A DNA stretch of 64,000 bases from Escherichia phage Ec_YwIITB1: sequence record PQ356294.1; one strand, given 5' to 3'. Positions within the stretch are counted from its first letter, which is position 1. The number at the start of each line of letters is the position of its first letter. The notes below the pieces were generated by a model. That model saw only the letters and a program-made list of their open reading frames with translations, did not search any database and was not told the origin of the DNA. Positions 5,879 to 59,664 of the stretch are shown here, one piece after another. The translations under genes were made by a program, and so were the position numbers.

Positions 5879-6090
5879 AAAAGATTCCTTTTAATGTATC
5901 TTTTAGACCATTCTATCATATCATCATAATCTAAAAAGTATTCATCAAATTCAGCCATGCAAACAACACCTTTCGCTGCTTTTGATGTGATATAAATTAT
6001 TCCAACATATCTAGAATCTTCTTCGGTGTAATCAATATTTGCTATGAATTCATCGTTAATGTCAAATGTCGAAAACTTCACAGTATGCAT
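5875..6090 (-). CDS. small hypothetical protein (46.1 position)
   Basis: Start trimmed to ATG 6088-6090 with TAAGGA RBS. Confidence 0.55.
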   Translation of the reverse strand: MHTVKFSTFDINDEFIANIDYTEEDSRYVGIIYITSKAAKGVVCMAEFDEYFLDYDDMIEWSKRYIKRNLL

Positions 6091-6325
6091 CCTTAATACA
6101 AGATACAGCCATATCTTGTAATGATTTAGGTGTGTCATTATCTAAAATGTTGAAGTTAAAAGATACAGCCCAATCAGTGCAGACCGTAACCTTTTTAATA
6201 CAATTATCTTCAATCTCTAGCGGTTCAAACCAATATTCAATAATTTCTTTATGCCCAATATCATCTTTTACTTCGCATTCAAAATGCTGACTCATCATAA
6301 CATTTTTAAATTCATCAAAAGTCAT
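6062..6325 (-). CDS. small hypothetical protein (46.2 position)
   Basis: 87 aa ORF overlapping neighbours. Confidence 0.55.
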   Translation of the reverse strand: MTFDEFKNVMMSQHFECEVKDDIGHKEIIEYWFEPLEIEDNCIKKVTVCTDWAVSFNFNILDNDTPKSLQDMAVSCIKDAYCEVFDI

Positions 6326-7341
6326 TGTGTTGCCTCTACATATAACTGATTTGCATATTGAATAAGTGCTTCGCGGTCAGAATCAGTGATGTCTGGAATT
6401 GCATTAATGTATTCTTCCATTAACGTCTGAAGAGATTGAACTTCAACTTCTTCGCTATCATCTGACTCGACAGAGTTATCAATCTTTGACACAACTCGTA
6501 ATGAATGCACAACTTTTTCTAGTTCAGATTCGAACTTCGTCAGATTTTTGTCTACTTCAGTTACTATAACACGTACTGATAGATTTGTAAAATCTTTATA
6601 GTCAATTTTTCCCTTAAATGGATATTGAATTCGACGATGCCAGGTAGTGCTGTTTGGAATAAATTCCATTCGTTCTGTTTCTGTATCAAACATCCAGAAC
6701 CCGCGAGGGTCATTCTCGTCACCTGCAGTTAGTGTCCATGGTGTCCCAATATATCTGACGTTAGCAGCCTCAGAGATAGTATGGAAGTGACCAGACCACA
6801 CCTCTTTATAAGTCTTAAGGAAATCAGGTTCAAGACCGTGAGATTTCATTCCTTTATAAAAATAAAATCCATTCAGCTCCCAGTGACCAACACAAAAAGA
6901 AGCAGATGAAGTTTTGATGTGCTCAAGAATTTCACCAGTATTTTCTTCACACATCCAAGGAATTAAATCAATCAAACATCCGTCAAAATCTACTGTAGTA
7001 GGCTTATCATATACTTTAACATTAGGATATTTAGCCAAAAGCTCAGTAGAAGCATTTGGATGCATTACATTTTTGTAGTGGAGATCGTGATTTCCTACAA
7101 TAGTATGTAATGTGATTCCAGCATCATCAAGCATTTGAACTATTTCACGAGCGAACTCCATAGTTTTATGTGTGATTGCTTTTCGCACATCAAAAATATC
7201 GCCGTATTGAATCCATACAGTAATTCCGTTTTTCTTAGAATATTCTATTGCTTGTTTAATTCCATCAATTTGAATACCGCGAATCCACTCATCATCAGCT
7301 TTAACGCCTAAATGCCAATCACCCAAGTTTAGTATTTTCAT
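6322..7341 (-). CDS. 47: recombination nuclease gp47 (Mre11/SbcD-like phosphoesterase)
   Basis: 339 aa; metallophosphoesterase motifs (GDWH, GNHD). Confidence 0.9.
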   Translation of the reverse strand: MKILNLGDWHLGVKADDEWIRGIQIDGIKQAIEYSKKNGITVWIQYGDIFDVRKAITHKTMEFAREIVQMLDDAGITLHTIVGNHDLHYKNVMHPNASTELLAKYPNVKVYDKPTTVDFDGCLIDLIPWMCEENTGEILEHIKTSSASFCVGHWELNGFYFYKGMKSHGLEPDFLKTYKEVWSGHFHTISEAANVRYIGTPWTLTAGDENDPRGFWMFDTETERMEFIPNSTTWHRRIQYPFKGKIDYKDFTNLSVRVIVTEVDKNLTKFESELEKVVHSLRVVSKIDNSVESDDSEEVEVQSLQTLMEEYINAIPDITDSDREALIQYANQLYVEATQ

Positions 7342-25850: not shown

Positions 25851-26372
25851 TTATCCTTTCATTGAAGGTGTAACAGTTGTTAAATACTTAATCATAGCTT
25901 CAGCTTCTGATTTTGATAATGAAATTTCTCCATTGTTTTGACGAATAGAAATAAAATCCGGATGACGGTCACCACCAGCTTTTAAAATACACATATAAGT
26001 ATCAGTTTCATCTTCAATATCTGAAATAATTGAAGCAGTTCCACATGAATGTGGTTTTTGATAAATCAATGCAGCTTTTCTTCCACCGTTTGACTGTTCA
26101 TAAACTTTTAACACATCAAACAAATCGCTTCTTTTATCAATAGCTAAGATGTTGTTTTCATCTTCAATATTAAATCCTTCGGATACTTCATAAAGTGTCA
26201 CCCATAAATCACCTATATCGATAGTAGCATTTCCTTTTCCACGACTTTCAAGAATATGACAAATTTTCTTGATTTCGTCATAACTCATTTTAATAATATC
26301 ATCTCCTTGAATAAGGAAGATGTCATTTTTAAATTCAACACGAATTAAACCACTTCCACTTGAAATAAACAT
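25851..26372 (-). CDS. hypothetical protein, tandem paralog A
   Basis: 173 aa; C-terminal region similar to 26379..26933. Confidence 0.6.
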   Translation of the reverse strand: MFISSGSGLIRVEFKNDIFLIQGDDIIKMSYDEIKKICHILESRGKGNATIDIGDLWVTLYEVSEGFNIEDENNILAIDKRSDLFDVLKVYEQSNGGRKAALIYQKPHSCGTASIISDIEDETDTYMCILKAGGDRHPDFISIRQNNGEISLSKSEAEAMIKYLTTVTPSMKG

Positions 26373-26378
26373 ATTTCC

Positions 26379-26933
26379 TCACTTTGAAATCATAGTTGGA
26401 ATGACAGAATCGAGATAAGTCTTTAGCGCAATAGCTTCGTCTTTGGTAAATGTGACAATATGCGATCGAAAATCATCAATTTGACGAATAGTTAAGACAT
26501 CACCATCTTCATAGCATTTTGATATGTTTAAAACAGTTTCATCATTCTGATTGCAAGCGTTAGTAATAATAGCATTGCAATTTTTGAGCCATTTTAAACT
26601 ATGTTTTCTTTCATTAGAATAATAAAAATATTTAATCTTATCTATAAAACTATCCCAATGAATAACTGATAGGCATATTGACTCACTTTTAATATTAAAT
26701 CCTGGGCATGAAGAATAAAAATGAATTTTGTGCTCATCATTGATGCTTACTATTTTATCAGTATAAGGATATTCAATTTGGGTTAAATGAATGATTTCAC
26801 TAGGCGTAAAATATAGCATATCGTCTTCTTGCGTCAAACGATACATATTATTTACTTTTTCTATAGCTAATTCACCAAAAAGCGGACTAACTTCTAATAC
26901 TAATCGTTTCATATTAATCCTTTTTATTGGCAT
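26379..26933 (-). CDS. hypothetical protein, tandem paralog B
   Basis: 184 aa. Confidence 0.6.
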   Translation of the reverse strand: MPIKRINMKRLVLEVSPLFGELAIEKVNNMYRLTQEDDMLYFTPSEIIHLTQIEYPYTDKIVSINDEHKIHFYSSCPGFNIKSESICLSVIHWDSFIDKIKYFYYSNERKHSLKWLKNCNAIITNACNQNDETVLNISKCYEDGDVLTIRQIDDFRSHIVTFTKDEAIALKTYLDSVIPTMISK

Positions 26934-27192
26934 GAATTTGTTTTAAAATTTTAGAGTATTCCTTTGTATCAGATTTACGTACAATCGATACACTATAAGG
27001 CATACTATCTGTGTCTTTTATAAAACGTTCCAAATGACACTCTAACAAAATTTCTGGATTATAAATCGTGTACATCAAATTACCTGTTGCTCCACGATAT
27101 TGGCAGATTTCTACTGATTGAGCATCATTCCACAATTTTGTTAAGACTAAATCACCTACTTCTAATTTCGGAAAGCTCACATTATTCACCAA
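26914..27192 (-). CDS. hypothetical protein
   Basis: 92 aa ORF. Confidence 0.5.
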   Translation of the reverse strand: MVNNVSFPKLEVGDLVLTKLWNDAQSVEICQYRGATGNLMYTIYNPEILLECHLERFIKDTDSMPYSVSIVRKSDTKEYSKILKQIHANKKD

Positions 27193-27367
27193 TTAAAGTT
27201 TCAATATAAGAATCAAGATTTACTTTAGCTTCTTCCATAAGAGTTTTGTATTTAATCTTGTTAGCATATCCAGAGAAAGCTGATTCATCAATAACTGTTG
27301 ATGTATGAACAGCTTTACTATACATCTCAATTAATTCTCTTAATTTAAAAGCCTGCTCACTTGTCAT
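27182..27367 (-). CDS. small acidic protein, family member 1
   Basis: 61 aa; shares N-terminal T/S-x-EQ..K and C-terminal Y-I/L-E motifs with five other small ORFs. Confidence 0.5.
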   Translation of the reverse strand: MTSEQAFKLRELIEMYSKAVHTSTVIDESAFSGYANKIKYKTLMEEAKVNLDSYIETLIGE

Positions 27368-27499
27368 TACATACTCCTTTGAATAATATCAATAATGTTG
27401 TTCACCAGATTATAAGTAAACATTGGATAATTATATTGAATCATCACATACACAACAAACAAAACTTTCATTCTCTTCTCCTTGACAGTTGACAAGATT

Positions 27500-27529
27500 A
27501 CTATACCATAACCTTGCCAACTTGTAAAC
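27500..27529 (-). promoter_or_regulatory. early-type promoter (GTTTAC, 18 nt, TATAGT)
   Basis: Hexamers with sigma70 spacing in the 27368-27531 gap. Confidence 0.4.
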
Positions 27530-27531
27530 CA

Positions 27532-27705
27532 TTAAATGACGTTTTCAATAAAATTCTGAAGCTTTGTGTGAGCATCAACCATGATTTTCATTTCTTCCTT
27601 TGCGAAAGCTGTACCTCTTTCCCGAGCAGAATACTCATAATCAGAAACTGCATTAGCATATTCTTCAATTAGCTTCATTAAAAACATCTGCTTTTCAGTT
27701 TTCAT
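27532..27705 (-). CDS. small acidic protein, family member 2 (absent from the ORF track)
   Basis: 57 aa ORF MKTEKQMFLMKLIEEYANAVS...; ATG overlaps the stop of 27695..27889. Confidence 0.45.
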   Translation of the reverse strand: MKTEKQMFLMKLIEEYANAVSDYEYSARERGTAFAKEEMKIMVDAHTKLQNFIENVI

Positions 27706-27889
27706 TATTCCACCTAATCATTTCAAGATATTGAACTAACTTAGCTTTGGATTTATCCAAATCCTTTTTAGCTGCTTCTATACCATCGTATGAATATCCT
27801 TCACAATGCTCAACTGCCAATTGGTATGAATCTATTTCAATATCACGTGCTAATTTAATGATTTTTTCAAACTGTTCACGTGTTAGCAT
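27695..27889 (-). CDS. small acidic protein, family member 3
   Basis: 64 aa ORF. Confidence 0.5.
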   Translation of the reverse strand: MLTREQFEKIIKLARDIEIDSYQLAVEHCEGYSYDGIEAAKKDLDKSKAKLVQYLEMIRWNNEN

Positions 27890-27891
27890 AC

Positions 27892-28131
27892 TTAAACTCT
27901 CGTATTATGATCGATAATTTCATCAAGAAACATATCTAAAGCTTCTACAGCATTATCAACTTTAGCTTCAAGTTCTTCAGCACCTTTATTTGCAATGCCC
28001 GACGAAAACCAAGCAAAGTCACTAAGTTCCTCATCTGCTTTGCGAATTAAAGCTACCAATTCTTTAATTTTATCTGCTTGTTCAATGCTAATCATTATTC
28101 CACCACATATGAAAGAGAGAATATTGCACAC
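27892..28131 (-). CDS. small acidic protein, family member 4
   Basis: 79 aa ORF; true start may be an internal Met. Confidence 0.5.
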
Positions 28132-28283
28132 GCCATATGAGTTGCAGCTTCATCACACATATCATAACGTTTCTTAAGAAGTTCTACAAGTTCTTCACTA
28201 GTAACTTCATCCATGTCGACGAAAAAATCACCATTAATGATGACGTAGATATTTCCTTCTTGATTGAGTGCTTCAATTTTCAT
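28095..28283 (-). CDS. small hypothetical protein
   Basis: Start trimmed to ATG 28281-28283 with GAGGAG RBS. Confidence 0.5.
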
Positions 28284-28347
28284 GATGTTCTCCTCTTTAT
28301 CCGATGGTTGTATAGTATCACAGCTCAAATTGAAAGTAAACCGGTAA

Positions 28348-28374
28348 AATGAAAAAAGTCTCCCGAAGGAGACT
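28348..28374 (-). terminator. intrinsic terminator (UUCG loop, U run)
   Basis: agtctcc-cgaa-ggagact followed on minus strand by UUUUU. Confidence 0.65.
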
Positions 28375-28378
28375 AATG

Positions 28379-28765
28379 TTATTCGAGTGAAAGAAGATAT
28401 TTGCTCTGGTAAAACATCCCAGTGATATCATCTATCGTGCTTTGAATGGCTGGAGGCATTTCTTTATAAATGCTGTTAGATTGATCTAGTATGTGATCAA
28501 TCATTTTAATTGTATCGGTAGGAAGTTTACTGGCGTCTGGAATAGAAGGCGTGTATTTTCTACCAGAATACCCTAAATATTGCTCACCAAATTTATCAAT
28601 CAAATCTGGCAATTCAGAGAAAATAAAATCGTATGCTTTGTGTCTAGCATAACTTTTAGTTTCAAAATGTGCAGAATGAAAATAAGCTTGTGCAGCCATT
28701 AATAAACCTAAGTATTCATCTGCCTTTGAAGGTTTTCCACTTTGTGAAAAGTCGCTGAATTTCAT
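28379..28765 (-). CDS. hypothetical protein (rI.-1 position)
   Basis: 128 aa, directly upstream of rI. Confidence 0.6.
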
Positions 28766-29055
28766 TCAGTCTCCAATTTAATGTTCATAATTCTAGCGTA
28801 TGATTGTGCCATCTCCGCGCCTCGCTCTATACATTCAAAATCGGAAGAGCACGGGTCATTTTTATAAGTCGTTCGCATAAAACTATAGAACTGTTCAGAT
28901 GATTCTACGCTTTTATTTTCAAAAAGCATATAAACGTGTCTAATACCAGATTCCATAAATTTATCAAAATGAAGATCGACATTCGCTTCAATTGGTGGAG
29001 ATAAAGCAAATGCTAATCCTAGCATGGCAAATAGTGCCGTTGCTTTTAAGGCCAT
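28762..29055 (-). CDS. rI: lysis inhibition regulator RI (membrane-anchored)
   Basis: 97 aa; N-terminal anchor MALKATALFAMLGLAF. Confidence 0.85.
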   Translation of the reverse strand: MALKATALFAMLGLAFALSPPIEANVDLHFDKFMESGIRHVYMLFENKSVESSEQFYSFMRTTYKNDPCSSDFECIERGAEMAQSYARIMNIKLETE

Positions 29056-29067
29056 AAAGGCCTCCTA

Positions 29068-29280
29068 TCATTTTTGTCCTGTATTTACTTTATGCCGATG
29101 CACGGCCTTAACTTTATCAAGGTATTTTTCAAAATTTCGCAATCTAGTATAGTCTGCCGGAGATTGGTTGAGTGATACTTCTCGACGCAAAGCTGAAATG
29201 ATATTTCCAACTTCCCTACGAATTTCATCTAATTGAAGAACAGTAAGATTGCGAAGTTGCTTTTCAGTTAATTGTAGCAT
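29068..29280 (-). CDS. hypothetical protein (rI.1 position)
   Basis: 70 aa ORF. Confidence 0.55.
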
Positions 29281-29322
29281 ATATACCCCTTTAGTTAGAT
29301 AAACCTATTTATAACTTTTGCA

Positions 29323-29904
29323 CTAACCAAGCTTTTTAGTTAATTCATTCCAATGTTTTCTACACAAAGAAACATAAATTTCATCACCAATACAGATTTG
29401 ATTACCTTCTTTAACTGGCGTTCCATCTTCCATTAATCGAGCTGTCATAATAGCTTTTTTACCACAATGACAAACTGCTTTTAGTTCAATAAGTTTATCT
29501 GCAATCGCCAAAAGTTCTTTAGAACCTTCAAATAATTTTCCAGCGAAATCAGTCCTTAGTCCATAAGCCATAACAGGAACATTATATGTATCGACAATTC
29601 GGCTTAATTGATGCACCTGTTCAGTTTTTAAAAACTGGGCTTCATCTACAAATACACAATGAATATCTTTTTGTGCTTCAGCCCATTTATAGAACTCAAA
29701 AATATCCATATCATCCGTAATAATATTCGCTTCCTGCTTAATTCCAATGCGAGAAACGACTTCACAGACAGAATCACGAGTATCAATAGCAGGCTTAAGA
29801 ACTAATACACCCATTCCGCGTTCTTTATAATTATGCGCAGCAGTCAAAAGAGAAGCAGATTTTCCAGCATTCATTGCTGCGTAAGTAAAAATTAAACTCG
29901 CCAT
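29323..29904 (-). CDS. tk: thymidine kinase
   Basis: 193 aa; P-loop NAGKS; C-terminal Zn-ribbon cysteines. Confidence 0.9.
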   Translation of the reverse strand: MASLIFTYAAMNAGKSASLLTAAHNYKERGMGVLVLKPAIDTRDSVCEVVSRIGIKQEANIITDDMDIFEFYKWAEAQKDIHCVFVDEAQFLKTEQVHQLSRIVDTYNVPVMAYGLRTDFAGKLFEGSKELLAIADKLIELKAVCHCGKKAIMTARLMEDGTPVKEGNQICIGDEIYVSLCRKHWNELTKKLG

Positions 29905-29905
29905 C

Positions 29906-30094
29906 TTAGTCCTTAGTTAAATTTTCTAAATATGTTTCTAAATCATTTTCAGCTTTATCGATAGATTTTACTAATTCGTAATATGTTTCGGCATCTCCGT
30001 ATTCAGAAGATATTTCAAAAGACAAATCCTTTTCTAAACTAATAATTTCACCAACTAAAAATAATATTTCGTTCTTTTGTTCGCGAGTAATCAT
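29906..30094 (-). CDS. small acidic protein, family member 5
   Basis: 62 aa ORF. Confidence 0.55.
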   Translation of the reverse strand: MITREQKNEILFLVGEIISLEKDLSFEISSEYGDAETYYELVKSIDKAENDLETYLENLTKD

Positions 30095-30276
30095 AAGGAA
30101 TTTATATAATTAATAAGTTCTTGTTCTTTATCGTCGAAATCTTTACACAGTTCTTCGTATTCGTCGGTATTAAAAGGACCGCATTCATCACAAACTTTTT
30201 CCAATTCGCTATTTTTATCCATAACTTCGTGAATAAGAGAAAATAGTCTGTCTTTTTGTTCTTTGCTTAGGCTCAC
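30091..30276 (-). CDS. small acidic protein, family member 6; apparent GTG start
   Basis: 61 aa; start codon at 30274-30276 is GTG overlapping the stop of an upstream 56-aa ORF. Confidence 0.5.
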   Translation of the reverse strand: MSLSKEQKDRLFSLIHEVMDKNSELEKVCDECGPFNTDEYEELCKDFDDKEQELINYINSL

Positions 30277-30279
30277 AGT

Positions 30280-30450
30280 ATGTCAATCCCCAAAAGTTTT
30301 AAAATGACTCGTTTCTGATTCATAACCGCTACGATTGAATGACCGTTGGGGTCTTTTTGACCTGATCCAATTATAAATCCTTTTTGTGCGGAAAGTTCAA
30401 TCAAAACATCAAGTTCACGTAATAATTGATATTTTAAATCATCGTTCATT
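30280..30450 (-). CDS. small hypothetical protein (absent from the ORF track)
   Basis: 56 aa ORF; ATG 30448-30450 with GAAGG RBS. Confidence 0.4.
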
Positions 30451-30673
30451 TTGGTTTACCTTCTTTAACGAAATCGGGATAAGGATAAAATCCTGAATAA
30501 AATCCTTCACCTTTATGATTGATACATCCTTTATTAGAACAATAGCACCAATAATCGAAATCACAAGCCATTTCATCATTACATAAAGCAAAAACAACTG
30601 GCCATTTACACTTTTCGCAGTGGGCATTTTTAAGAATACTAGTTTGGCTCATAACCATGTAACCTTTAAACAA
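30446..30673 (-). CDS. cysteine-rich small protein
   Basis: 75 aa with multiple Cys/His; preferred over the overlapping frame 30439..30627. Confidence 0.45.
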   Translation of the reverse strand: MFKGYMVMSQTSILKNAHCEKCKWPVVFALCNDEMACDFDYWCYCSNKGCINHKGEGFYSGFYPYPDFVKEGKPK

Positions 30674-30861
30674 TATTCTTCTACGTGCTGTTTACGACCT
30701 TTCTTATCAATAAAGGTATATTCAACGAATGTTCCAATATAGTCTTTATCTACACCATGCGGACTATTAATTGGACATTTAGTACGGCAAATGCGTTCCC
30801 ATTGACGAATAATTTCCACTTTGTTTTTAGGATCAAACGGATGCGGGTAATGTACTTTCAT
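30649..30861 (-). CDS. hypothetical protein
   Basis: 70 aa ORF. Confidence 0.5.
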   Translation of the reverse strand: MKVHYPHPFDPKNKVEIIRQWERICRTKCPINSPHGVDKDYIGTFVEYTFIDKKGRKQHVEEYCLKVTWL

Positions 30862-31312
30862 AATCCACCACTATTAAATCAATATCAGGAGTAAACATGT
30901 CGATTAATTTAGAAACCTTATCCCAATCGCCGCCTGCAATACCACAACCGATACGTGGAATGTAAATTACTGGTTTAAACAAAAGGGTTTCTGCCTGTAG
31001 ATTTAATTCTATCATGCAGTTTACTAAAGCACCATAATCAAGATTAGGACCCGGTTCGTATTGTGTATACAAATTATAGCACATACTAAATCCTGTAGGA
31101 TTATGTTTAAAAACAATAGACATATCACCTAATTTATCACGAGAACCGTACTCGGTAGTGGTTTTATCTATTTCTAAAATTTTGGGATAGGCTCTTGCTA
31201 ATTGACCTGCTACGCCAGAGCCCATTGTGTGGAAGCAATTACACCCGTGCGCAATAATATTACCTTGAAGAAATAGGGCGACAATATCGCCCTTGATATA
31301 TTTTACAATCAT
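30833..31312 (-). CDS. macro-domain-like protein
   Basis: Motifs GDIV, MGSGVAGQLARA and IPRIGCGIAGG resemble macrodomain signatures. Confidence 0.55.
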   Translation of the reverse strand: MIVKYIKGDIVALFLQGNIIAHGCNCFHTMGSGVAGQLARAYPKILEIDKTTTEYGSRDKLGDMSIVFKHNPTGFSMCYNLYTQYEPGPNLDYGALVNCMIELNLQAETLLFKPVIYIPRIGCGIAGGDWDKVSKLIDMFTPDIDLIVVDYESTLPASV

Positions 31313-57856: not shown

Positions 57857-59664
57857 TGAAACAAAATATTAATATCGGTAATGTTGTTGATGATGGTACC
57901 GGTGACTACCTGCGTAAAGGTGGTATAAAAATAAATGAAAACTTTGATGAACTTTATTATGAGCTTGGCGATGGAGATGTTCCATATTCAGCCGGTGCCT
58001 GGAAAACTTATGATGCTTCATCCGGTCAAACACTAAAAGCTATGTGGGGGAAATCATACGCTATTAATACCTCTTCTGGAAGAGTATTTATAAATCTTCC
58101 AAAAGGAACTGTCAATGATTATAATAAAGTAATTAGAGCTAGGGATGTATTTGCAACATGGAACGTTAACCCAGTTACTTTGGTAGCTGCTTCCGGGGAT
58201 ACAATTAAAGGGTCTGCAGTACCATCAGTTGAAATTAATGTTCAATTCAGTGATTTAGAGCTCGTTTATTGCGCTCCAGGACGTTGGGAGTATGTCAAAA
58301 ACAAACAAATTGATAAAATTATTAGTTCAGATATTAGTAATGTAGCTCGCAAAGAATTTTTAGTAGAAGTCCAAGGGCAAACAGACTTTTTAGATGTTTT
58401 CCATGGAACTAGTTATAACGTAAATAACATCAGAGTAAAACACCGCGGTAACGAATTATATTACGGCGATGTATTTAGTGAAAACAGTGACTTTGGCTCT
58501 CCGGGGGAAAATGAAGGAGAATTAATTCCTCTTGATGGATTTAATATTCGATTAAGACAGCCTTGTAATATTGGCGATACTGTTCAAATTGAAACGTTTA
58601 TGGATGGCGTATCACAGTGGAGAAGTTCATATACAAGACGTCAAATTAGAGTGTTAGATTCAAAATTAACGTCAAAGACTTCTTTAGAAGGAAGCATTTA
58701 CGTTACTGATTTATCAGCGATGAAATCAATTCCATTCTCTGCGTTTGGATTAATTCCTGGCGAACCCATTAATCCTAATTCTCTCGAGGTTCGTTTTAAT
58801 GGAATTTTACAGCAACAGGCTGGAACAGCTGGGTATCCTCTGTTTTTGTGCGAAGGCGCTAATTCAGATACGCAAGAAGGATGTATATCTCTTGGTGGCG
58901 AATGGAAAGAATCAAACACAGATTATTCTATAGAATATGAAGATGGAAAACCTACAAGTCTTTTATTTGATAGAAAATTTGAATCAGGCGATATAATCGT
59001 TATAACGTGGTTCAATAATGATTTAGGAACTCTTTTAGAAAAAGATGACATCATTGAATTAACGGATGACCGTTATGTTAGTAAAGGATCATCTACCGAA
59101 GTTACTGGTGATGTAGCCTTAACGGATTTTGATAAAATCGGTTGGCCAAATGTTGAAAAAGTTGATTCTTATACTAGAACGTATAATTCAATATCATCTA
59201 TTTTCGATAGCATTTATCCTGTAGGTTCAATTTATGAAAATGCTATAAACCCAAATAATCCGGTGACTTATATGGGGTTTGGTTCGTGGAAATTATTTGG
59301 TAAAGGACAAGTTTTAGTAGGATGGAATGATGATGTTACAGATCCAAACTTTGCATTAAACAATAATGATTTAGATTCTAGCGGAAATCCTTCACATACT
59401 GCCGGTGGAACAGTTGGAACAACGTCAGTAACGCTTGAAAATGCAAATCTTCCTGCGACTAAAACTGACGAAAGAGTTTTAATTGAAGATGAAAATGGAT
59501 CAGTTATTATTGGAGGTTGTCAATATGACCCAGATGAAACTGGTCCTATATATACAAAATATCGTGAAGACTATGCAACAACAAACTCTTCACATACTCC
59601 TCCTGCTAATATTAGTAATATTCAACCGTCTATTACTGTATACCGTTGGATAAGGATTGCATAA
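57856..59664 (+). CDS. 10: baseplate wedge protein gp10
   Basis: 602 aa. Confidence 0.9.

What the first reader, a model, noticed from the sequence alone, without database searches (positions are those of the whole stretch)
27182..30276. Six paralogous small acidic proteins scattered around rI and tk
ORFs 27182..27367, 27532..27705, 27695..27889, 27892..28131, 29906..30094 and 30091..30276 share an N-terminal (T/S)xEQ..K(I/L)..L(I/V) helix and a C-terminal Y(I/L)E(x)(L/I) motif. One of them is missing from the ORF track because it is under 60 aa. Several are translationally coupled through overlapping stop/start codons. Such expansion in a hypervariable early region suggests diversifying host-interaction factors.
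Basis: seen in the sequence. Interest (0 to 1): 0.55.

Follow-up and report, generated by a model that had tools for sequence, protein, structure and literature searches.

The report
Six T4 DUF7438 helical-hairpin paralogues
The six small ORFs are true paralogues of a catalogued but uncharacterised T4-phage protein family (Pfam DUF7438: T4 genes mobD.2a, mobD.3, mobD.4, tk.1, tk.2 plus one extra copy), each a ~60-residue two-helix hairpin made early in infection, so the pattern is real but already in the databases and its function is still unknown.

Summary
The window is a Tequatrovirus (T4-like) genome segment. All six ORFs are real minus-strand genes. Each matches Pfam PF24219 (DUF7438) over its full length at 54-70 bits (cut-off 25). 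A profile built from any five finds the sixth as the best other ORF in the window, and 0 of 2000 composition-preserving shuffles reach the real score. They are T4 mobD.2a, mobD.3, mobD.4, tk.1 and tk.2, plus an RB14/T6-type ORF that T4 lacks. No seventh member turned up.

AlphaFold2 predicts an antiparallel two-helix hairpin (pLDDT 94.6 and 85.4). Fold and sequence searches give only generic coiled-coil matches and no function.

In T4, MobD.3, MobD.4, Tk.1 and Tk.2 are detected as early or middle proteins, and the nrdC.11-mobD.3 block can be deleted.

The paralogues are old (14-30% pairwise identity, each with its own relatives elsewhere) and under purifying selection (pN/pS 0.03-0.25). Only the hairpin tip of mobD.4 (pN/pS 0.41, indels, mosaic alleles) and the tk.2 alleles vary much.

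Corrections: mobD.4 starts at ATG 28095, not GTG 28131, and tk.2 here starts with GTG.

Best reading, inferred: dispensable early binder proteins. The family is already known and interest is modest.

The parts
27182..27367 (-). DUF7438 member 1 (61 aa). Orthologue of RB14ncORF101c / T6 gp099. It has no T4 counterpart. The 'kilA' and 'helicase loader' labels in some records look like carried-over annotation errors.
   Evidence: Pfam PF24219 54.5 bits. phrog_4859. AF2 hairpin H3-25/H32-59, pLDDT 85.4. Present in RB14 and T6, absent in T4 and Ec_MI-02. Found in 192 phage records.
27532..27705 (-). DUF7438 member 2 = mobD.2a (57 aa). Its start lies 11 nt inside the end of mobD.3.
   Evidence: PF24219 59.8 bits. 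phrog_2758. RB14 annotation. pN/pS 0.06. Frameshifted in T4. Found in 643 records.
27695..27889 (-). DUF7438 member 3 = mobD.3 (64 aa), the most conserved copy.
   Evidence: PF24219 64.1 bits. pN/pS 0.03. T4 orthologue has early RNA and early protein (PMC9697503 supplement). Found in 585 records, mostly at 95% identity or more.
27892..28095 (-). DUF7438 member 4 = mobD.4 (67 aa from ATG 28095). The hairpin tip is hypervariable.
   Evidence: PF24219 58.5 bits. Start supported by family register and orthologue annotation. Tip codons 23-45 pN/pS 0.41, with indels and mosaics. T4 orthologue detected as early protein. Found in 504 records with a broad identity spread.
29906..30094 (-). DUF7438 member 5 = tk.1 (62 aa), 1 nt upstream of the tk start. 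A family member sits just upstream of tk in several T4-like genera.
   Evidence: PF24219 55.6 bits. 100% identical to T4 Tk.1. AF2 hairpin H4-29/H35-60, pLDDT 94.6. Position next to tk in MX01, STP4-a, Moon and metagenomic L006/L007. T4 protein detected.
30091..30276 (-). DUF7438 member 6 = tk.2 (61 aa). GTG start overlaps the stop of the upstream ORF (GTGA), and its stop overlaps the tk.1 start (ATGA).
   Evidence: PF24219 70.3 bits. Full-length frame conserved, and T4/T6/RB14 have ATG at the same codon. Junctions. Two allele classes among 744 records. T4 protein detected.
28312..28374 (-). Intrinsic terminator after rI.-1 (28374-28357, then a T-run), followed by the early promoter of the mobD.5-mobD.4-mobD.3-mobD.2a unit (TTTACT 28340-28335, 17 nt, TACTAT 28317-28312).
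   Evidence: Terminator scan. Sequence conserved with T4. A mobD.5 promoter stop is seen by primer extension in T4 (PMC1702504).
27500..27528 (-). Promoter-like site (TTTACA, 17 nt, TG-TATAGT) in the 60-nt gap between mobD.2a and mobD.2. It would drive mobD.2 and ORF101c.
   Evidence: Consensus scan, 10 of 12 matches with an extended -10 TG. Gap sizes. Function not shown.

Best explanation
Shown:
- The six ORFs are paralogous members of Pfam family DUF7438, which in these searches occurred almost only in T4-like phages. They correspond to T4 genes mobD.2a, mobD.3, mobD.4, tk.1 and tk.2, plus an RB14/T6-type sixth copy.
- Each protein is a single minimal domain of about 60 residues, predicted to be an antiparallel two-helix coiled-coil hairpin.
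- They sit in early transcription units, packed end to end with their neighbours.
- In T4, four of the orthologues are detected as proteins.
- The copies are old and are individually kept by purifying selection, yet individual copies are gained, lost, frameshifted or recombined between related phages. In T4 the mobD-side block can be deleted.

Inferred mechanism:
- They are dispensable early accessory proteins that work by binding other proteins in stoichiometric amounts, not by catalysis.
- The conserved part is the open end of the hairpin: M1, I/L2, T3, E5 and Q6 at the start of helix 1, packed against L52, Y/F55, L/I56 and L/I59 at the end of helix 2. Extra hydrophobic positions 11, 14, 56 and 60 sit there too. 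This end is the likely common docking or self-association surface.
- The acidic, length-variable tip differs between paralogues and, in mobD.4 and tk.2, between alleles. It would set partner specificity.
- The most likely partners are host proteins that are taken over or neutralised early in infection, including defence factors.
For: Family membership and significance.

Gene identities.

Fold. Hydrophobic positions follow a heptad pattern, with Ala/Ser at positions 20 and 48.

Expression: T4 MobD.3 and MobD.4 are early RNA and early protein, Tk.1 and Tk.2 are early RNA and middle protein (PMC9697503 supplements). A mobD.5 promoter is mapped in T4 (PMC1702504) and conserved here.

Dispensability: the nrdC.11-mobD.3 block is deletable in T4 (PMC9825161). 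Natural loss, frameshift and chimeras are seen.

Selection: purifying overall, with a variable tip in mobD.4.

Distribution:
- Only 40 clusters at E<=1e-3 among 1.84 billion representatives, nearly all 57-67 aa.
- Every context examined is a phage, mostly T4-like.

No catalytic or known-family signal in Pfam, NCBIfam, PADLOC or PDB.
Against: - No partner, phenotype or oligomeric state is known, so the binding mechanism rests only on size, fold and conservation pattern.
- The conserved N- and C-terminal residues could be purely structural (hairpin closure) rather than a binding site.
- pN/pS at the mobD.4 tip is 0.41, which fits relaxed constraint as well as an arms race.
- mobD.3 and mobD.2a are almost invariant among Tequatroviruses, which argues against rapid host-driven diversification for those copies.
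Confidence: 0.5

Rival explanations
1. Products of neighbouring, overlapping genes (tk.2 with tk.1; mobD.4 with mobD.3 and mobD.2a) assemble into obligate hetero-oligomeric four-helix bundles. The family would then act as one or two multi-subunit complexes rather than as independent proteins.
For: Adjacent genes have overlapping stop and start codons, which would favour equimolar synthesis. Two-helix hairpins of this size often need a partner to bury their core. Extra hydrophobic positions lie near the open end.
Against: - Copy number is uncoupled across 50,697 phage records: tk.2 in 744 and tk.1 in 194; mobD.2a 643, mobD.3 585, mobD.4 504, ORF101c 192.
- More distant T4-like phages carry one or two copies only.
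- T4 has a frameshifted mobD.2a, yet MobD.3 and MobD.4 are still made.
- Homo-oligomers are not excluded.
Confidence: 0.15
2. The family serves the phage's own nucleotide metabolism. The tk.1-type copy would be an accessory or regulatory partner of thymidine kinase or of the dNTP-synthesising enzyme complex.
For: A family member sits just upstream of tk in the window and T4, Dhakavirus MX01, Gelderlandvirus STP4-a, Moonvirus Moon (with a homing endonuclease inserted between them) and metagenomic contigs L006/L007.
Against: - Four of the six copies lie 1.3-2 kb downstream of tk on the coding strand, beyond rI, in separate early units.
- tblastn detects tk.1 in only 194 phage records, against 744 for tk.2.
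- The single copy in the 142-kb contig L004 has no TK neighbour within 8 kb.
- Tight packing of unrelated genes is the rule throughout this region.
Confidence: 0.1
3. The hairpins dimerise into Rop-like four-helix bundles that bind nucleic acid, or the strongly acidic members act as DNA or RNA mimics.
For: - Size and topology resemble the 63-residue Rop hairpin, a resemblance recalled from memory.
- Small residues sit at core positions 20 and 48.
- Net charge is -9 to -10 for tk.1, tk.2 and mobD.4.
Against:
- A net negative charge argues against direct nucleic-acid binding.
- Three of the six are only mildly acidic (net -2 to -3), so mimicry cannot be a family-wide property.
Confidence: 0.08
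4. The resemblance is due to chance or composition (A+T-rich genome, helix-favouring residues), or some of the ORFs are not genes.
For: Pairwise identities are low (14-30%). The ORFs are short. Helical, charged sequences easily give spurious alignments.
Against: - Pfam scores are 54-70 bits over the full model.
- Leave-one-out recovery succeeds and 0 of 2000 shuffles reach the real score.
- pN/pS is 0.03-0.25.
- Four T4 orthologues are detected by mass spectrometry.
Confidence: 0.01

Closest known systems
Pfam PF24219 (DUF7438), equivalent to PHROGs 653, 2758 and 4859; T4 genes mobD.2a, mobD.3, mobD.4, tk.1, tk.2 (UniProt P39238, P39237, P13306, P13307)
   Same: All six ORFs are full-length members. 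tk.1 is 100% identical to T4 Tk.1, and the others have orthologues at 90% identity or more in deposited Tequatrovirus genomes.
   Different: Nothing differs in kind. This phage has six intact copies. T4 has four intact plus one frameshifted copy and lacks the ORF101c type. The family has no assigned function.
Rop/Rom (ColE1 repressor of primer), a 63-residue helical hairpin that dimerises into a four-helix bundle
   Same: Similar length, helix-loop-helix topology, and small residues at core positions. The comparison with Rop rests on my own knowledge of its structure.
   Different: No sequence relationship. Not among the fold matches listed. Rop binds RNA kissing complexes, and nothing here indicates RNA binding. 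The oligomeric state of DUF7438 proteins is unknown.
Small early phage proteins that bind and inhibit host proteins (for example T4 AsiA, lambda Kil and CIII, small helical anti-CRISPR and anti-defence proteins)
   Same: Small size, early expression, dispensability in the laboratory, location in plastic accessory clusters, and gain and loss between close relatives.
   Different: No homology to any of them. No target or phenotype is known. This is an analogy of lifestyle, not of family.

Membership tests
Pfam DUF7438 (PF24219) | Whole-protein score at or above the curated gathering score (25 bits) | tested here: met
   54.5, 59.8, 64.1, 58.5, 55.6 and 70.3 bits for the six ORFs. All 32 sequences of the wider alignment also match.
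Pfam DUF7438 (PF24219) | Single domain covering essentially the whole ~60-aa protein (57-position model matched end to end) | tested here: met
   Model positions 1-56 or 1-57 of 57 are matched in each protein, and the proteins are 57-67 aa.
Pfam DUF7438 (PF24219) | Occurrence in T4-like (Straboviridae) phage genomes among early accessory genes | tested here: met
   The window is 95-98% identical to Tequatrovirus genomes. Homologues lie on 160-171 kb T4-like contigs. Early expression in T4.
Pfam DUF7438 (PF24219) | Common fold (two-helix antiparallel hairpin) | tested here: met
   AF2 models of tk.1 (pLDDT 94.6) and ORF101c (pLDDT 85.4) both give helix-loop-helix. The other four were not modelled but align over their full length.
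Helicase loader / KilA anti-repressor (label on phrog_4859 and on T6 gp099) | Homology to a known helicase-loader or KilA domain | tested here: not met
   No Pfam, NCBIfam or PDB match other than DUF7438. The T6 record's own notes for this stretch trace product names to 'similar to' hits in other phage records that plainly do not fit, for example 'rI antiholin' on gp110, a gene that is not rI. The real gp59-type loader is annotated elsewhere in the closest genome.
Molybdopterin-guanine dinucleotide biosynthesis protein MobD (label on mobD.4 orthologues) | Homology to a molybdopterin-guanine dinucleotide biosynthesis enzyme | tested here: not met
   No such Pfam or NCBIfam hit. The protein is 67 aa. 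In T4 'mobD' names a homing endonuclease gene, so the label looks like a confusion of names.
Rop-like four-helix-bundle RNA-binding proteins | Sequence or specific structural similarity to Rop; homodimeric bundle; RNA binding | tested here: not met
   hhalign probability 0.06%. Rop is not among the fold matches listed. Dimerisation and RNA binding cannot be tested with these tools.
Known defence-system components (PADLOC) | Match to a model of a defence-system protein | tested here: not met
   No meaningful match. The best is E 0.008 at 12 bits to a methyltransferase model.

The most novel reading that the evidence does not exclude
DUF7438 hairpins are a modular set of decoys or inhibitors. 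Each old paralogue would neutralise a different host factor or defence protein through a shared docking end. The hypervariable, recombining tip (mobD.4, tk.2) would be the specificity element in an ongoing arms race. That would explain why T-even phages keep five or six copies while more distant T4-like phages keep one or two.
Probability: 0.2. Interest if true: 0.6.

Novelty: already known. Interest (0 to 1): 0.3.

Why it matters
T4 is among the best-studied phages, yet five of its named early genes belong to one family with no known function, and four of them are detected as proteins. It is useful to know that they are one family with a defined minimal fold, a conserved end and a variable tip. 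One experiment set (a multi-gene deletion plus pull-downs) could then assign function to several T4 ORFs of unknown function at once. If the targets turn out to be host defence or takeover factors, the family would join the list of small phage counter-defence proteins. As it stands, the finding re-identifies a catalogued family and corrects some annotations.

Tried and rejected
- **Seventh member:** I looked in the window, in the rest of the near-identical Ec_MI-02 genome and in T4 1-45 kb. None was convincing. The best extra hit is a pseT.2-like ORF outside the window at E 0.007.
- **Neighbours:** mobD.5, rI.1, mobD.2 and ORF 30273-30449 are not members.
- **Sequence search of PDB chains:** nothing below E 0.06.
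- **NCBIfam and PADLOC:** nothing.
- **Rop homology:** rejected.
- **A 117-aa member with a C-terminal extension (P0129):** the extension has no Pfam match and its contig gives no clue.
- **Literature:** no paper in the library mentions DUF7438, or discusses mobD.2a, mobD.4, tk.1 or tk.2 by name in its main text. One malformed query failed.
- **The search for related loci with the family alignment:** failed because no stretch is conserved enough.
- **'Helicase loader', 'kilA' and 'MobD molybdopterin' labels:** rejected as annotation noise.
- **Metal site in tk.2 (three Cys):** rejected, because the Cys residues are not conserved in tk.2 orthologues.
Full report
**What the window is.** A 3.4-kb query around the finding matches 581 phage records. 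The best are Tequatrovirus genomes (Ec_MI-02, Shigella pSs-1, T6, RB14) at 95-98% identity. Using the RB14 and T4 annotations, the six ORFs are:

| Window coordinates | Gene |
|---|---|
| 27182-27367 | RB14ncORF101c (no T4 counterpart) |
| 27532-27705 | mobD.2a |
| 27695-27889 | mobD.3 |
| 27892-28095 | mobD.4 |
| 29906-30094 | tk.1 |
| 30091-30276 | tk.2 |

All are on the minus strand, like every neighbouring gene.

- Each ORF matches Pfam PF24219 (DUF7438) across the full 57-position model, at 54.5-70.3 bits against a gathering score of 25.
- PHROGs splits them into phrog_653 (mobD.3, mobD.4, tk.1, tk.2), phrog_2758 (mobD.2a) and phrog_4859 (ORF101c), with cross-hits between these families.
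- Without any outside profile, an HMM built from any five finds the sixth as the top non-training hit among 910 stop-to-stop ORFs of the window, with E from 3e-7 to 9e-3.
- None of 2000 composition-preserving shuffles of any member reaches its real score. Real scores are 12.6-26.9 bits and the best shuffles 10.7-14.2.
- The neighbours mobD.5, rI.1, mobD.2 and the ORF at 30273-30449 are not members.
- No seventh member appears in the window, in the remainder of the near-identical Ec_MI-02 genome, or in T4 1-45 kb.

**Corrections to the coordinates.**
- mobD.4 starts at ATG 28095 (67 aa), not at the GTG of the longest ORF at 28131. Every family member begins its helix at residues 2-6, all orthologues are annotated at 60-67 aa, and the ATG follows GGTGGAATA.
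- tk.2 in this phage starts with GTG, overlapping the stop of the upstream ORF (GTGA). T4, T6 and RB14 have ATG at the same codon. The DNA-identical Ec_MI-02 record annotates only an internal-ATG 43-aa fragment, which would remove much of helix 1.
- Only tk.1, tk.2 and mobD.4 are strongly acidic, with net charge -9 to -10. The other three have net -2 to -3.

**Gene organisation.** The genes are packed with overlaps or 1-2 nt spacers:
- GTGA at ORF110c/tk.2
- ATGA at tk.2/tk.1
- a 1-nt spacer at tk.1/tk
- TAATG at mobD.5/mobD.4
- a 2-nt spacer at mobD.4/mobD.3
- an 11-nt overlap at mobD.3/mobD.2a
- TAATG at mobD.2/ORF101c

Only three real gaps occur on this strand:
- a 95-nt gap after rI.-1, holding an intrinsic terminator (28374-28357) and a T4-type early promoter conserved with T4;
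- a 60-nt gap between mobD.2a and mobD.2, holding a promoter-like site (27528-27500);
- a 42-nt gap after tk.

A mobD.5 promoter has been seen by primer extension in T4 (PMC1702504).

**Structure.** AlphaFold2 with a 29-sequence alignment predicts tk.1 as two helices, 4-29 and 35-60, joined by a short loop (mean pLDDT 94.6, pTM 0.78). The most divergent copy, ORF101c, gives the same topology, with helices 3-25 and 32-59 (pLDDT 85.4).
- Conserved hydrophobic positions follow a heptad pattern: 10, 13, 17, 20, 24 in helix 1 and 38, 41, 45, 48, 52, 55, 59 in helix 2. Positions 20 and 48 are mostly Ala or Ser. This is what a tight antiparallel coiled coil looks like.
- The best-conserved residues cluster at the open end of the hairpin, where the N-terminus meets the C-terminus. 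Extra hydrophobic positions 11, 14, 56 and 60 lie there too. The tip is polar, acidic and variable in length.

**Searches for function.** None gave a function.
- PDB sequence search: nothing below E 0.06.
- Foldseek against PDB: nothing below E 0.4.
- Foldseek against BFVD: only uncharacterised phage proteins, led by family members from other T4-like genera.
- NCBIfam and PADLOC: nothing.
- Rop, which I recalled as similar in size and topology, shows no profile similarity.
- The labels 'helicase loader', 'kilA' and 'molybdopterin-guanine dinucleotide biosynthesis protein MobD' attached to some orthologues look like annotation noise. The T6 record's own notes trace product names in this stretch to 'similar to' hits in other phage records that plainly do not fit. 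In T4, 'mobD' is the name of a homing endonuclease gene.

**Distribution.**
- An exhaustive profile search of 1.84 billion representative proteins finds only 40 clusters at E<=1e-3. Nearly all are 57-67 aa single-domain proteins.
- The named hits and long contigs are T4-like phages, or T4-like sequence inside bacterial assemblies.
- Copy number within about 5 kb either side of the tk-proximal copy: three in Dhakavirus MX01, two in Gelderlandvirus STP4-a, one or two in Moonvirus Moon.
- The metagenomic T4-like contigs examined carry one copy.
- A copy just upstream of tk recurs across these genera.
- T4 itself has intact mobD.3, mobD.4 (with a 7-codon shorter tip), tk.1 and tk.2, a frameshifted mobD.2a, and no ORF101c.
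- Record counts among 50,697 phage records:

| Gene | Records |
|---|---|
| tk.2 | 744 |
| mobD.2a | 643 |
| mobD.3 | 585 |
| mobD.4 | 504 |
| tk.1 | 194 |
| ORF101c | 192 |

**Expression and dispensability.** In the T4 time-resolved omics study, mobD.3 and mobD.4 are classed as early RNA and early protein. tk.1 and tk.2 are early RNA and middle protein. mobD.2a has early RNA but no protein, which fits its frameshift in T4 (PMC9697503 supplements 4 and 6). In a T4 genome-reduction study, nrdC.11-mobD.3 was among the large fragments that could be lost (PMC9825161).

**Evolution.**
- The six copies share 14-30% identity. In a neighbour-joining tree, each groups with its own relatives from other sources rather than with another window copy (there are no support values, and the sequences are short). 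The duplications are therefore old.
- Against RB14, Ec_MI-02, T6 and T4, pooled pN/pS is 0.03 (mobD.3), 0.06 (mobD.2a), 0.17 (tk.1, tk.2), 0.20 (mobD.4) and 0.25 (ORF101c). For comparison, tk and rI.-1 give 0.02 and rI gives 0.12.
- With ten Tequatrovirus alleles, the mobD.4 tip (codons 23-45) has pN/pS 0.41, against 0.12 and 0.23 in the helix ends.
- The mobD.4 tip also carries indels and shuffled segments.
- One mobD.4 allele starts MKTEKQ, the mobD.2a N-terminus, which suggests gene conversion between paralogues.
- Natural chimeras of the tk.2 N-terminal half and the tk.1 C-terminal half exist (P0043 from UFV-AREG1, and P0089).
- These pairwise sums are not independent and ignore recombination, so they are descriptive only.

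**Interpretation.** Identity, fold, expression, age and constraint are shown. Mechanism is inferred.
- A 60-residue hairpin with no catalytic features, made early, dispensable in the laboratory, and variably present between close relatives, most likely acts by binding another protein.
- The conserved open end is the best candidate for a common interface or self-association surface. The variable tip is the best candidate for specificity.
- Obligate hetero-complexes of neighbouring gene products are unlikely, because copy numbers are uncoupled and distant relatives have a single copy.
- A role tied to thymidine kinase fits the tk.1 position but not the other four copies.
- Chance similarity is excluded.

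**Verdict.** The reading 'diversifying host-interaction factors' is only partly supported. The paralogues are old and constrained, with elevated change limited to the mobD.4 tip and the tk.2 alleles, and no host interaction is shown. The family is already catalogued (Pfam DUF7438; named T4 genes since the 1986 sequence X04567), so novelty is low. The remaining interest is that five named T4 early genes of unknown function reduce to one tractable fold.

Noticed in passing
window 25851-26372 (-) and 26379-26933 (-): Two adjacent larger ORFs (173 and 184 aa; RB32ORF097c-like and mobD.1-like) are also paralogues of each other (BLASTP 28% identity over 176 aa, E 9e-10). A second duplicated accessory family therefore lies close downstream of the DUF7438 cluster.
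   Followed up: partly
window 30091-30276 (-); Ec_MI-02 OP856590.1 58163-58294: tk.2 has a GTG start here. In the DNA-identical Ec_MI-02 record, and in one T6 record, only a 43-aa internal-ATG fragment is annotated, which truncates helix 1.
   Followed up: yes
T4 NC_000866.4 about 57996-58177 (L010 5997-6178): T4 mobD.2a is a frameshifted copy. The N-terminal 38 aa and the C-terminal part (KEEMKIMVDAHTKLQNFIENVI) lie in different frames. No MobD.2a protein is recorded in the T4 proteome data.
   Followed up: yes
Ec_MI-02 OP856590.1 133522-133746 (L013 5123-5347), outside the window: A 74-aa pseT.2-like ORF scores E 0.007 with the family HMM and ends ...DLHDYIQSLVEK. It may be a distant relative of the family.
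   Followed up: no
L015 (Citrobacter phage Moon) 8497-8661: A 54-aa ORF beyond rI.-1 on the far side from tk (MNEENKIKLLDLIEKLRQAD...MFDFIQSM) scores E 0.02. It looks like a divergent family member missed at normal thresholds. Moon also has a SegE-like homing endonuclease inserted between its tk.1-type gene and tk.
   Followed up: partly
L021 (phage ESCO58) mobD.4; P0043 (UFV-AREG1), P0089: There are signs of recombination between paralogues. One mobD.4 allele carries the mobD.2a N-terminus (MKTEKQ). Chimeric proteins join the N-terminal half of tk.2 to the C-terminal half of tk.1.
   Followed up: partly
window 30273-30449 and 30446-30673 (-): Two small ORFs (RB32ORF110c and RB32ORF111c types) lie between tk.3 and tk.2. 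T4 lacks them, and the first is only about 70% identical to its RB14 and T6 counterparts. tk.4 (macro domain, 30833-31312) is also highly divergent between close relatives (70-81% identity over part of its length).
   Followed up: no
L017 (Logan SRR27947026 contig) 6001-6354: A 117-aa protein joins an N-terminal DUF7438 domain to an unmatched 59-aa C-terminal extension. It lies on a 9.9-kb phage-like contig that does not look T4-like.
   Followed up: partly
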